Below, piece after piece: positions 43,741 through 45,157 of a DNA stretch of 64,000 nucleotides. The DNA lies in the NCBI RefSeq assembly GCF_009914755.1, contig NC_060947.1; one strand, given 5' to 3'. Source of the stretch: the human T2T-CHM13v2.0 reference genome, Homo sapiens. Below the pieces are notes generated by a model. The model saw only the letters and a list, made by a program, of their open reading frames with translations. It had not been told where the DNA came from and ran no database searches. Position 1 is the first letter of the stretch. Each line of letters starts with the position of its first letter. The position numbers and the translations under genes were made by a program.

Positions 43741-44536
43741 GTAACGGGTTTGTAACTGCCACAGCAAAACAATTTGCCTCCATGCCTGAATCTTCTGTCT
43801 TGTGGCTTCAGAAACAGCTTAAAATAATTTTATTTACAAGCAAGTTATGTAAGAGAATGTTTTATACTATAGCCACAATTCTGTCAAAGATAAGTAAAAG
43901 TTAATTGATATTAAAAATTATTAGAGATAATTTACTTAGTAAAAGCTTCTAACTCTTCTTGTTGTTCATTTTTTTTCCTTTTTTCTTCTTTGTTTGGATT
44001 GCAGCATTCTGCTCTTCTGATGATGCGCTGTGACCCTGCAGTAGCGCAAAGGCTGCGCAGCGTTAATGCGCATTGCGTGCGAATGAACCCCTGTGAACGG
44101 TTGACTAGATGAGTAATCTGATTGACTGGCTCCCTCAGTCCTATTCTGTAGCCTTTTTGGATAAAATTGGGTTTTAACATACCTCGAGTCCAACTAATCT
44201 CATTAAACAAATATTCTCCATGGGCCTGTCTAGTAGATTAATGGATCTGGTTGGCCGTTTGCTGCGTCTAGGGGTGTTCTATGTAGCGCAGCAGTTCGCA
44301 GCGATTGCGCAGTGCGATGCTGTTAGGTTGCGCAAGCGATGTTTGCGCTCGCATTACAGGGACCTCAACCTAGGTGCAATCCTGTCATGTGAGGTTTCAG
44401 CTTCAGTCCTCCTTGGGAGACGGGGCATTGTGAGAATGTAACTTAAAGCCTGGCTTTATGATATCCTACTTGGCAGAAAGACATTTTTCTCCTCAGTAGC
44501 ATAGTTTTGATGTTAGTGAGGAACATTGTTGAAGAG

Positions 44537-44752
44537 CAGCATTTCCCAAAATGTGTTTCATAGTATTCTAATAAAATGCCCAATGAAAGAAGAGTTCCAT
44601 GGTCAACTAAGTTCAGGGAACCCTGTTACACTATTAAAGGCTTAGGGAAGTCCAGTAAAGAAACCTATTTTCCGAATTTATTTGATCATGAACTCCTTTT
44701 TTTTTCAGCCATACCTCTTAACACCTCATAGAACACACTTTGGGAAACAGTG
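44537..44752. mobile_element. Ancient hAT-Charlie type MITE (MER5/MER112-like) in intron 4
   Basis: Terminal inverted repeats TTTCCCAAAATGTGTT (44542-44557) and AACACACTTTGGGAAA (44732-44747), 15 of 16 complementary. Confidence 0.6.
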
Positions 44753-45004
44753 GGGGTAGGAAAACTCGGCCTCAAGTTGCGCCCTCTAGGTAGCACTTGA
44801 AAACATGACAAGGGCCCGTAGTTGTTTGGATAAGAGAACTCCAGCATAGAGCCTTATAGCAACTGACTTCCCAGTTAAGTCCCAGTGTAAGGGTTGGTCT
44901 TTGGTTGGCAGAACTGAACATGGTGGTTTGCACTTGGGTTCTGGTGGCGCAGGCGCAGGAGCAGCCAGCTGTGGCAGCGCATTAGTTTTGGCGCAAGCGA
45001 GCCT

Positions 45005-45157
45005 ATGCTGCAGGGTCACTTTTGGCTGGTCAGAGAAGGAATAATGATATCACCTTCTTCCCCCCCTCCCCCCAATCTTTTTTTTTTCCCTTTACAAATT
45101 TTCCCCTTTCCCTTTACCTCCTTTCCCTCCCATCTTCTTTCATTAACCCCTCCTAAG
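45005..45157 (+). CDS. OGT: Intron 4-encoded N-terminus of the mitochondrial OGT isoform (mOGT)
   Basis: ATG 45005 reads [51 protein letters not shown] in frame into exon 5; matches the known mOGT leader. Confidence 0.75.

What the first reader, a model, noticed from the sequence alone, without database searches (positions are those of the whole stretch)
44015..45035. About 1-kb long-range RNA fold-back in the 3' part of the OGT detained intron
Seen, pairing by eye and strictly nested: 44015-20/45030-35; 44030-41 GTGACCCTGCAG with 45008-19 (12 bp perfect, plus GU and AU pairs reaching into the mOGT ATG); 44054-58/44991-95; 44064-71 TAATGCGC/44977-84; 44074-81/44948-57; 44085-90 GAACCC/44936-41; 44100-09/44900-09 (GU-rich); 44122-29/44871-78; 44135-39/44862-66; 44145-52/44844-50; 44189-93/44826-30; 44221-30/44807-18; 44260-77/44779-95. 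These 13 colinear helices span about 260 nt per arm and are not from any repeat I recognise. The enclosed loop holds local hairpins (44330-48, 44361-96) and a MITE hairpin. The left foot starts about 10 nt after the strong cryptic acceptor 44004; the right foot covers the mOGT start and ends beside the probable distal branch region. Inference: a structured RNA device that controls intron detention, acceptor choice and mOGT initiation in O-GlcNAc homeostasis, and a possible ADAR substrate. I am not aware of a description of it but could not search.
Basis: partly seen in the sequence, partly recalled or inferred. Interest (0 to 1): 0.85.

Follow-up and report, generated by a model that had tools for sequence, protein, structure and literature searches.

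The report
Predicted RNA fold-back in OGT intron 4
About 1 kb of the regulated (detained) intron 4 of the human OGT gene is more self-complementary than chance and is predicted to fold into a closed RNA module, but in a different arrangement from the one proposed, and whether it forms or acts in cells remains untested.

Summary
9 of 13 helices pair fully without gaps, including the perfect 12-bp pair 44030-41/45008-19, which extends to 14 bp. The excess is statistical, not chance. The left and right arms pair better than any of 100 dinucleotide shuffles (z about -4.2) and any of 160 other segments of the window. The whole 44005-45040 stretch folds at z -4.4 on the sense strand and -2.0 on the antisense.

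In the Boltzmann ensemble only the outer foot survives (P 0.87). Helices 3-4 get P 0.04-0.07, the five other ungapped helices about 0, and enforcing all nine costs +24 kcal/mol.

The predicted module has three parts:
- foot P1 (44006-43/45006-42);
- a 267-nt hairpin A (44044-44310; sense z -4.1, antisense -1.3);
- a long-range duplex B (44311-425/44875-985), capped by a MITE-like hairpin.

In the full-intron fold the module lies only 4 kcal/mol above the minimum, so the prediction depends on context.

It lies 258 nt downstream of the known decoy exon and overlaps the 3' part of the published silencer. No orthologues, probing or ligation data could be reached, so conservation and function are open. 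I found no description of it in the papers I could search.

The parts
44006..44043 (+). P1, 5' strand of the closing foot. The core helix is 44030-44043.
   Evidence: Pairs with 45006-45042. The 14-bp core has P 0.86-0.87 and the lower helices P 0.18-0.57. 0 of 1727 natural 37-nt segments of the window pair as well, GC-adjusted z -6.5.
45006..45042 (+). P1, 3' strand. It covers the U and G of the mOGT ATG (45005-45007) and the AGs at 45012, 45032, 45034 and 45037.
44044..44310 (+). Domain A: a 267-nt imperfect hairpin with 81 pairs, 15 of them G-U. Its core is an 18-bp helix, 44093-44110/44245-44262, with 6 G-U.
   Evidence: P 0.76-0.99. Sense z -4.14 (0 of 200 shuffles) against antisense z -1.30 (21 of 200). 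Strand-against-strand duplex z -7.3 (0 of 200). 0 of 733 natural segments as good. The core persists in the full-intron MFE.
44311..44425 (+). Domain B, 5' strand of the long-range duplex.
   Evidence: Pairs with 44875-44985. The 13-bp helix 44367-44379/44928-44940 has P 0.86. Duplex z -5.6 (0 of 200). 1 of 574 natural segments is as good.
44875..44985 (+). Domain B, 3' strand.
   Evidence: In the full-intron MFE this strand pairs instead with 42084-42146. Enforcing the core of either P1 or B restores P1, A and B at +4.0 kcal/mol.
44542..44747 (+). MITE-like hairpin at the apex of domain B.
   Evidence: A 16-nt, 94% complementary inverted repeat (I2). A 78% identical match to 44668-44747 lies on another chromosome. 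The 211-nt stretch 44540-44750 that holds it folds at z -4.5 on its own. Removing that stretch in silico leaves P1, A and B intact, with z -3.4 (0 of 60).
43949..44004 (+). Strong pseudo-3' splice site directly 5' of P1: CTAAC branch consensus (43949-43953), a 46-nt tract that is 85% pyrimidine, and CAG ending at 44004.
   Evidence: Read from the sequence. Its use in transcripts was not verified, and no RefSeq exon starts there according to the hub annotation.
45043..45157 (+). Pyrimidine-rich, AG-free run directly 3' of P1, ending at the exon 5 acceptor.
   Evidence: 84% pyrimidine over 45043-45155. There is no AG between 45037 and 45156.
43595..43747 (+). Context only: the published OGT decoy (poison) exon. 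It is not part of the fold-back.
   Evidence: A tandem acceptor (TAG, AAG) and two GT donors 7 nt apart give lengths of 143, 146, 150 and 153 nt. These match the four forms listed by Govindan and Conrad 2025 (PMC12017769, passage).
44775..45040 (+).
   Evidence: Duplex z -4.2. The segment starting at 44893 is the second-best partner of 44044-44130 among 733 natural segments. This register is disfavoured by 24.3 kcal/mol.

Best explanation
What is shown in silico: 44006-45042, which is 74% of the sub-intron between the decoy exon and exon 5, has an excess of sense-strand self-complementarity. It is predicted to fold into one closed module:
- a foot, P1, with a 14-bp core;
- a 267-nt hairpin, A;
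- a long-range duplex, B, whose apex holds a MITE-like hairpin.

P1, A and B abut with no unpaired bases on the 5' side. The GCGCA/TGCGC motifs concentrated in this stretch mostly sit in the helices around that junction.

What is inferred:
- The detained intron is long-lived in the nucleus, so such a fold has time to form.
- Folding would loop out about 1 kb. The path from the decoy 5' splice sites (43741/43748) to the exon 5 acceptor (45157) would shrink from about 1410 nt to about 370 nt.
- It would also place the pseudo-acceptor (branch consensus, pyrimidine tract and AG 44004) against the 115-nt pyrimidine tract of exon 5, and would bury the AGs at 45012-45037 in P1.
- The most likely role is therefore to tune how the decoy exon and the pseudo-acceptor engage the exon 5 3' splice-site region. 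That would make it a candidate for part of the extra cis sequence that the silencer alone lacks for O-GlcNAc-responsive splicing.
For: - Whole region: sense MFE z -4.4 (0 of 40 shuffles) against antisense -2.0 (1 of 40). A repeat gave -4.1. After in-silico removal of the MITE-like part it is -3.4 (0 of 60), with P1, A and B kept.
- Ten other 1036-nt segments of the window gave z -0.3 to -2.5, apart from one at -10.8.
- The energy gain from pairs spanning more than 300 nt is -28.7, against -15.1 +/- 5.1 in shuffles (1 of 45 as good).
- Duplex tests: A z -7.3 and B z -5.6 (0 of 200 each).
- Natural-segment controls: P1 0 of 1727, A 0 of 733, B 1 of 574.
- Ensemble probabilities: P1 core 0.87, A 0.76-0.99, B 0.41-0.87.
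- P1 and B are coupled. Enforcing either one restores P1, A and B in the 3457-nt context at +4.0 kcal/mol.
- Strand asymmetry of hairpin A: -4.14 against -1.30.
- The arms are single-copy, and A and B show no direct-repeat similarity.
- 150-nt windows in the right arm are not locally structured, with z +0.2 to +1.5.
- Literature, passages read: the 526-nt silencer placed alone in a beta-globin intron represses splicing but does not respond to the drugs (Park 2017, PMC5588854, section 7). The reporter carrying the entire intron 4 does respond (Govindan and Conrad 2025, PMC12017769). The OGT detained introns are described as extensively conserved (Tan 2020, PMC7261177).
Against: - No orthologous sequence could be obtained, so there is no evidence of conservation or covariation for any helix.
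[quoted passage not shown] The right arm pairs with 42084-42146, and the P1 5' strand extends hairpin A. Predictions at this length are within model error of each other.
- The segment limits for the A and B tests were chosen after seeing the native fold, which inflates their z-scores.
- Natural 1-kb segments already average about z -1.3, leaving out the one at -10.8.
- The GC-rich motif pairings taken alone are no better than chance: helices 3-5 give z -0.8, 39 of 200 shuffles as good.
- 150-nt windows show no strong local signal.
- The decoy exon and its splice sites suffice for retention in heterologous introns (Parra 2018, PMC6097662, passages). The fold-back is therefore not needed for retention as such.
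- In vivo, bound proteins and helicases may prevent 1-kb pairings.
- The functional steps are inference only.
Confidence: 0.38

Rival explanations
1. By-product of conserved sequence elements. The stretch is dense in GC-rich, partly palindromic motifs (GCGCA/TGCGCA) and other constrained sequence that serve as protein-binding sites on the RNA. Their self-complementarity makes folding programs predict helices that do not form, or do not matter, in the cell.
For: - 10 of the 23 GCGCA in the 64-kb window lie in 44044-44991 and 2 more in the same intron at 42830/42855 (binomial P about 1e-12 for the 10).
- These motifs sit in the junction helices, and alternative registers among them are nearly equal in energy.
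- CpG observed/expected is 0.83 in 44000-44400, against 0.27 in the intron upstream.
- No paper I could search mentions structure here.
Against: - The strongest signals come from helices without the motif: the 14-bp P1 core, the 18-bp helix of A and the 13-bp helix of B.
- The motif-only pairings are at chance (z -0.8).
- The sense/antisense asymmetry of hairpin A is not expected from palindromic motifs, which read the same on both strands.
Confidence: 0.27
2. A 13-helix, roughly 260-nt-per-arm fold-back, 44015-44277 against 44779-45035, acts as a device controlling detention, acceptor choice and mOGT initiation.
For: - L x R duplex z -4.2 (0 of 100).
- Helices 6-13 alone give z -3.0 (0 of 100).
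- The right arm is the second-best partner of 44044-44130 among 733 natural segments.
Against: - Of the nine ungapped helices, the five beyond helices 1-4 have P about 0.
- Enforcing the nine ungapped helices costs +24.3 kcal/mol. That brings the energy to -336, about 1.3 sd from the shuffles' mean minimum energy.
- It excludes both hairpin A and duplex B, each of which has stronger statistics.
- The mOGT frame is broken in most mammals (PMC4901358).
Confidence: 0.08
3. Mostly chance plus model artefact. Only the MITE-like hairpin, and perhaps hairpin A, are real. The 12-bp match and the rest are what a search over 64 kb will turn up somewhere.
For: - A perfect 12-mer inverted pair within 1.5 kb is expected several times in 64 kb by simple counting. 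This is my estimate, not a tool result.
- A second perfect 12-nt pair occurs in the same 1.5 kb (I17).
- P1 and B drop out of the full-intron MFE.
- 1 of 10 control segments is more extreme.
- Shuffled arms already reach 80% of the native duplex energy.
Against: - Several partly independent controls all place the region in the tail.
- P1, A and B fit together as one nested module and restore one another.
Confidence: 0.17
4. A DNA-level element. The CpG-rich 44000-44400 would be an intragenic enhancer or alternative promoter, for example for transcripts carrying the mOGT start or the 'uc.475/HINCUT-1' transcript. The sequence would then be kept for transcription-factor binding, not for RNA folding.
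For: - CpG observed/expected is 0.83 over 401 nt.
- A review (PMC5547530, passages) reports that the uc.475 DNA region of the OGT retained intron showed enhancer-like activity in Ferdin et al. 2013. That primary paper was not held.
Against: - The position of uc.475 within the intron could not be established here. It may instead cover the decoy exon.
- RefSeq lists no functional element here (hub annotation).
- The sense-strand bias of folding is not explained by a DNA element.
Confidence: 0.1

Closest known systems
Long-range intronic RNA structures that regulate splicing: pairs of conserved complementary regions (Kalmykova et al. 2021, PMC8052449, seen as a search listing and abstract only) and RBFOX 'RNA bridges' (Lovci et al. 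2013, recalled from a reference list)
   Same: Two complementary intronic segments about 1 kb apart, with a 12-14 bp core, that would loop out the sequence between them and bring splicing signals together.
   Different: Here there is no evidence of conservation, compensatory change or ligation. The core helix is the foot of a much larger nested module rather than an isolated pair. I could not check whether the pair is already in that catalogue, because its data lie outside the text I could search.
OGT intronic splicing silencer and decoy exon (Park 2017, PMC5588854; Parra 2018, PMC6097662; Govindan and Conrad 2025, PMC12017769)
   Same: The same intron. The 5' part of the module (about 44006-44183) falls inside the 526-nt silencer if its numbering (nt 1771-2297) starts at the first intron base. 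Both bear on detention of intron 4.
   Different: The decoy exon (43595-43747) is a separate element 258 nt upstream and acts through its splice sites. None of the passages I read mentions RNA structure, and none reports a deletion downstream of nt 2297. That leaves most of hairpin A, duplex B and the P1 3' strand functionally untested.
Structures between branch point and 3' splice site that shorten the effective distance and hide intervening AGs (yeast; Meyer, Plass and Vilardell 2011, recalled from memory and not read here)
   Same: A strong branch consensus and pyrimidine tract (43949-43999) lie just 5' of the foot. An AG-free pyrimidine tract and the real acceptor lie just 3' of it, and AGs are buried in the stem.
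   Different: The looped-out part is about 1 kb rather than tens of nucleotides. The AG at 44003-44004 precedes the stem and is not hidden inside it. Exon 5 also has nearer branch-like sequences of its own.
EvoFold predictions and ultraconserved element uc.475 in OGT intron 4 (Nielsen et al. 2014, PMC3895275, passages)
   Same: Earlier computational hints of conserved RNA hairpins in this intron: one prediction of 60 nt or more, and two short ones inside uc.475.
   Different: Those are short local hairpins.

Membership tests
Long-range regulatory RNA structure in a pre-mRNA (conserved complementary regions / RNA bridge) | Two complementary segments of 10 nt or more in the same intron | tested here: met
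   12 perfect bp, or 14 bp with one G-U, 966 nt apart.
Long-range regulatory RNA structure in a pre-mRNA (conserved complementary regions / RNA bridge) | Stability beyond shuffled and natural controls | tested here: met
   The caveat is that P1 and B are absent from the full-intron MFE, lying 4.0 kcal/mol above it.
Long-range regulatory RNA structure in a pre-mRNA (conserved complementary regions / RNA bridge) | Both arms conserved, with compensatory substitutions | not testable with these tools
   No vertebrate genomes are held. Exact-match scans of two collections found 0 loci.
Long-range regulatory RNA structure in a pre-mRNA (conserved complementary regions / RNA bridge) | In vivo duplex evidence (PARIS, RIC-seq, KARR-seq, DMS) and a splicing effect of disrupting and compensatory mutants | not testable with these tools
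   No such data are reachable. Literature searches found no paper reporting them for OGT.
OGT intronic splicing silencer (Park 2017) | Lies within intron nt 1771-2297, whose deletion abolishes retention | tested here: inconclusive
   Counting from 41887 gives 43657-44183. That covers only 44006-44183 of the module. The numbering origin is my inference, consistent with 'partially overlaps' the decoy in Parra 2018.
Decoy (poison) exon | A cassette with used splice sites, at the published lengths and position | tested here: not met
   The decoy maps to 43595/43598-43740/43747. The finding starts 258 nt or more downstream of it.
ADAR substrate | Long, nearly perfect double-stranded RNA, with observed A-to-I sites | tested here: inconclusive
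   The longest uninterrupted helix is 18 bp with 6 G-U. Hairpin A has 81 pairs with many interruptions.
Transposon-derived inverted repeat | Arms belong to a repeat family with other genomic copies | tested here: not met
   The own-genome search found only the locus itself plus one match to 44668-44747. The tool warns that its counts are lower bounds. The feature is met only for the central MITE-like hairpin.
Any Rfam family | A match at or above the gathering score | tested here: not met
   In 41800-45400, on both strands, the only hit at E up to 1 is mir-785 at 43808-43884: 24.1 bits against a gathering score of 62.

The most novel reading that the evidence does not exclude
The module is a conformational switch, and it is the missing O-GlcNAc-responsive cis element of OGT intron 4. 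The strand 44044-44130 has two outstanding partners in the whole 64-kb window. Duplex B competes for that same right arm. A regulated factor that binds the GC-rich junction, or a helicase, could shift the RNA between a compact state and an open state. In the compact state (P1+A+B), the decoy exon and pseudo-acceptor are held against the exon 5 acceptor region and splicing stalls. In the open state, exon 4 to exon 5 splicing proceeds.
Probability: 0.07. Interest if true: 0.85.

Novelty: new member of a known kind. Interest (0 to 1): 0.5.

Why it matters
OGT intron 4 detention is the main feedback that holds cellular O-GlcNAc constant. How the decoy exon stalls splicing is unresolved. Which sequences make that stall responsive to O-GlcNAc is also unresolved. 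The silencer alone represses but does not respond, whereas the whole intron does. A defined, testable RNA module filling three quarters of the sub-intron between the decoy and exon 5 gives concrete mutations to make in existing reporters. It also gives possible targets for antisense or small-molecule control of OGT levels. If the module proves not to be conserved or not to form, that removes a tempting but wrong explanation.

Tried and rejected
- Orthologues. No vertebrate collection is available. Exact-match scans with a 26-base stretch of the left arm found 0 loci in genome contigs and 0 in viral contigs. Covariation could therefore not be tested.
- Supplementary files. They were closed when I asked for those of PMC3895275. 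The coordinates of EvoFold.36852-36854 and of uc.475, and the uc.475 primers of PMC8961524, could not be seen.
- Ferdin et al. 2013 (PMC3824588) is not held.
- Placing uc.475 or the EvoFold hairpin by local folding did not work. 42720-42920 folds at z -0.6, and the 150-nt scan shows only z -2.6/-2.1 at 42700-42899. This is not decisive.
- Tandem duplication of hairpins A and B: rejected. Local alignment scores are at shuffle level, with 49, 128, 170 and 139 of 300 shuffles as good in the four comparisons.
- Arms as a repeat family: rejected.
- Known RNA family: none.
- The first shuffle script hung and timed out with no output. It was rewritten.
- The correct values are 9 of 13 and ATG 45005-45007.
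Full report
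**Setting.** The window is human chrX with OGT, and intron 4 is 41887-45157 (hub annotation). The published decoy (poison) exon has four forms of 143, 146, 150 and 153 nt (Govindan and Conrad 2025, PMC12017769, passage seen). In the window, a tandem acceptor (TAG then AAG, ending at 43594 and 43597) and two GT donors at 43741 and 43748 give exactly these lengths. The decoy is therefore 43595/43598-43740/43747. The finding (44015-45035) lies downstream, in the sub-intron between the decoy and exon 5. Park et al. 2017 (PMC5588854, passages and section 7) define the silencer as intron nt 1771-2297. Counted from the first intron base, that is about 43657-44183. This is my inference, and it agrees with Parra et al. 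2018 (PMC6097662), who say the decoy 'partially overlaps' the silencer. Only the first 180 nt or so of the finding would then lie inside the silencer.

**Is the observation in the sequence?** The perfect 12-nt inverted pair 44030-41/45008-19 is there (I14). The other four have unequal arms and were not scored. The mOGT ATG is 45005-45007, and translation from it reads MLQGHFWLV... in frame into exon 5. Two of its three bases lie in the 14-bp helix. The pseudo-acceptor is strong on its face, with CTAAC at 43949, a 46-nt tract that is 85% pyrimidine, and CAG ending at 44004. I could not verify that it is used.

**Is it more than chance?**
- An interaction-only fold (RNAduplex) of L (44010-44280) against R (44775-45040) gives -171.8 kcal/mol. 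Shuffling R gives -136.3 +/- 8.5, shuffling L gives -137.1 +/- 8.2, and shuffling both gives -138.2 +/- 7.2. In each case 0 of 100 shuffles do as well.
- None of 160 natural 266-nt segments of the window does as well. The best of them overlaps R itself. The GC-adjusted z is -4.8.
- Without the foot the signal drops to z -3.1, with 2 of 100 shuffles as good.
- The whole stretch 44005-45040 folds at z -4.4 on the sense strand (0 of 40) and -2.0 on the antisense (1 of 40).
- Ten other 1036-nt segments of the window gave z -2.1, -1.7, -10.8, -0.3, -1.2, -0.3, -2.5, -0.6, -0.9 and -2.3. These used 8 shuffles each, with the sd set to 8.5.

So natural sequence is already shifted by about -1.3. One segment is far more extreme; it overlaps a masked repeat stretch. 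The finding is in the tail of this distribution, but it is not unique. Shuffled arms also reach about 80% of the native duplex energy. A by-eye chain of 13 short colinear helices is therefore not evidence by itself.

**What the folding models prefer.** I ran a partition function over 43560-45300 (1741 nt).
- The 12-bp helix has P 0.87 and helix 1 has P 0.45. Helices 3-4 have P 0.04-0.07, and the five other ungapped helices have P about 0.
- Instead, 44044-44132 pairs locally with 44222-44310 (P 0.76-0.99). This makes a 267-nt hairpin, which I call A. Its core is an 18-bp helix with six G-U pairs.
- 44311-44425 pairs with 44875-44985. I call this duplex B. Its 13-bp helix 44367-79/44928-40 has P 0.86.
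- B continues inward through 44452-71/44754-853 to a MITE-like hairpin at 44542-58/44731-47.
- P1, A and B abut directly at 44043/44044 and at 44310/44311.
Enforcing only helices 1-4 costs +2.8. Forcing the P1 core's 5' strand to stay unpaired costs +14.6.

**Support for this architecture.**
- Hairpin A folds at z -4.14 on the sense strand (0 of 200) and -1.30 on the antisense (21 of 200). This asymmetry fits pairing at the RNA level with many G-U pairs.
- Strand-against-strand duplex tests give A z -7.3 and B z -5.6 (0 of 200 each). The GC-rich helices 3-5 alone give z -0.8, with 39 of 200 shuffles as good.
- Against natural segments of the window, P1 is matched by 0 of 1727, A by 0 of 733 and B by 1 of 574.
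- Pairs spanning more than 300 nt contribute -28.7 kcal/mol, against -15.1 +/- 5.1 in shuffles (1 of 45 as good).
- Removing the MITE-like part in silico leaves z -3.4 (0 of 60), with P1, A and B intact. The MITE-like part alone folds at z -4.5.
- Domain B alone folds at z -2.7 (0 of 20).
- Sliding 150-nt windows show no strong local signal, and the right arm is locally unstructured (z +0.2 to +1.5). This fits a strand that pairs at long range.

**Results against it.**
[quoted passage not shown] The right arm pairs with 42084-42146, and the P1 5' strand extends hairpin A. Only the core of A and the MITE-like hairpin persist.
- Enforcing the core of either P1 or B brings back P1, A and B at +4.0 kcal/mol out of -983. 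That is within the error of the energy model, so the prediction depends on context.
- I chose the limits for the A and B tests after seeing the native fold, which favours them.
- Most important, I could obtain no orthologous sequence.

**What it is not.**
- The arms are single-copy in the genome. Only 44668-44747 has another match, 78% identical on another chromosome.
- A and B are not duplicates of each other.
- No Rfam family matches.
- It is not the decoy exon.

**Other features.** GCGCA occurs 23 times in 64 kb. Ten of those lie in 44044-44991 and two more at 42830/42855 in the same intron. Most of them sit in helices around the P1/A/B junction. CpG observed/expected is 0.83 in 44000-44400, against 0.27 upstream in the intron. 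This points either to strong constraint or to an unmethylated island. I cannot tell which.

**Literature.** Ten full-text searches found no paper that describes a long-range fold in OGT intron 4.
- 'Secondary structure' occurs 0 times in Park 2017 and in Govindan and Conrad 2025. 'Stem', 'base pair' and 'hairpin' also occur 0 times in the former, and 'RNA structure' and 'base-pair' 0 times in the latter.
- Nielsen et al. 2014 (PMC3895275, passages) report one EvoFold hairpin in this intron. They also report the ultraconserved element uc.475 600 bp downstream of it, holding two short EvoFold hairpins.
- Tan et al. 2020 (PMC7261177, passages) cite a 397-nt element that is 100% identical in human, mouse and rat, and describe extensive conservation in the detained introns.
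- Where uc.475 lies relative to the module is unknown to me. It may cover the decoy exon instead.
- Trapannone et al. 2016 (PMC4901358, passages) show that the 150 bp after the mOGT ATG is 90-100% identical in their table of mammals, while the frame is broken in most. That stretch is therefore kept for a reason other than coding.
- The silencer alone in a beta-globin intron represses but does not respond to the drugs. The reporter carrying the entire intron 4 does respond. Further cis sequence is therefore needed. In the text I read, nothing downstream of nt 2297 has been deleted.
- The catalogue of conserved complementary regions (PMC8052449) does not name OGT in its text. Its data files could not be checked, so the 12-bp pair may already be listed there.

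**Mechanism.** What is shown is excess sense-strand complementarity and a coherent nested module. The rest is inference.
- Folding would loop out about 1037 of the 1410 nt between the decoy donors and the exon 5 acceptor, leaving about 370 nt.
- It would set the pseudo-acceptor's branch site and pyrimidine tract (43949-43999) beside exon 5's 115-nt AG-free pyrimidine tract.
- It would bury the AGs at 45012-45037 in P1.
- Decoys are thought to act by engaging the intron-terminal splice sites unproductively (Parra 2020, PMC7373989, abstract). Such a loop-out would therefore be expected to strengthen or tune that engagement.

I put about 0.38 on a real, functional RNA structure of this kind.

**Verdict.** The foot, and the excess complementarity in general, are real. 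The proposed inner register is not the favoured one. If real, this is a new member of a known kind, long-range intronic RNA structure, in a gene where the mechanism is actively sought. Interest 0.5.

Noticed in passing
window 43595-43747: The published OGT decoy/poison exon can be placed exactly. A tandem acceptor (TAG/AAG) and two GT donors 7 nt apart give the four published lengths of 143, 146, 150 and 153 nt. It is not in the RefSeq rows of the hub table.
   Followed up: yes
window 43949-44004: A textbook-looking 3' splice site deep in the intron: CTAAC, a 46-nt tract that is 85% pyrimidine, and CAG. No annotated exon follows it. It may be a second U2AF/U2 sink, or the acceptor of old 'exon 5' mOGT transcripts. 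Its use was not checked.
   Followed up: partly
window 42830-42860 and 44044-44995: 12 of the 23 GCGCA pentamers in the 64-kb window lie in OGT intron 4. On the sense strand GCGCA (10) outnumbers TGCGC (7) within 44000-45050. This may be a binding motif. No factor was identified.
   Followed up: partly
window 44542-44747; L002 (G000:C5:123184352-123184429): A MITE-like hairpin with a 16-nt, 94% complementary terminal inverted repeat sits at the apex of predicted duplex B, as if it had inserted into the loop of an older hairpin. A related copy lies on another chromosome.
   Followed up: partly
window 45038-45155: There is no AG for about 118 nt upstream of the exon 5 acceptor, and 45043-45155 is 84% pyrimidine. 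This is an unusually long AG-exclusion zone, which allows distant branch points.
   Followed up: no
window 42084-42146 with 44881-44953: In the full-intron minimum-energy fold the right arm pairs 2.8 kb upstream, with helices of 7, 9, 6 and 8 bp. This is a competing very-long-range partner, and I did not test its significance.
   Followed up: no
window 14000-15035: This control segment folds about 92 kcal/mol below its shuffles (z about -11). It overlaps a masked repeat stretch (14583-15095) and is probably an inverted repeat pair in TAF1's last intron region.
   Followed up: no
window 43808-43884: A weak Rfam hit to mir-785: 24.1 bits against a gathering score of 62, E 0.079. Most likely chance.
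   Followed up: no
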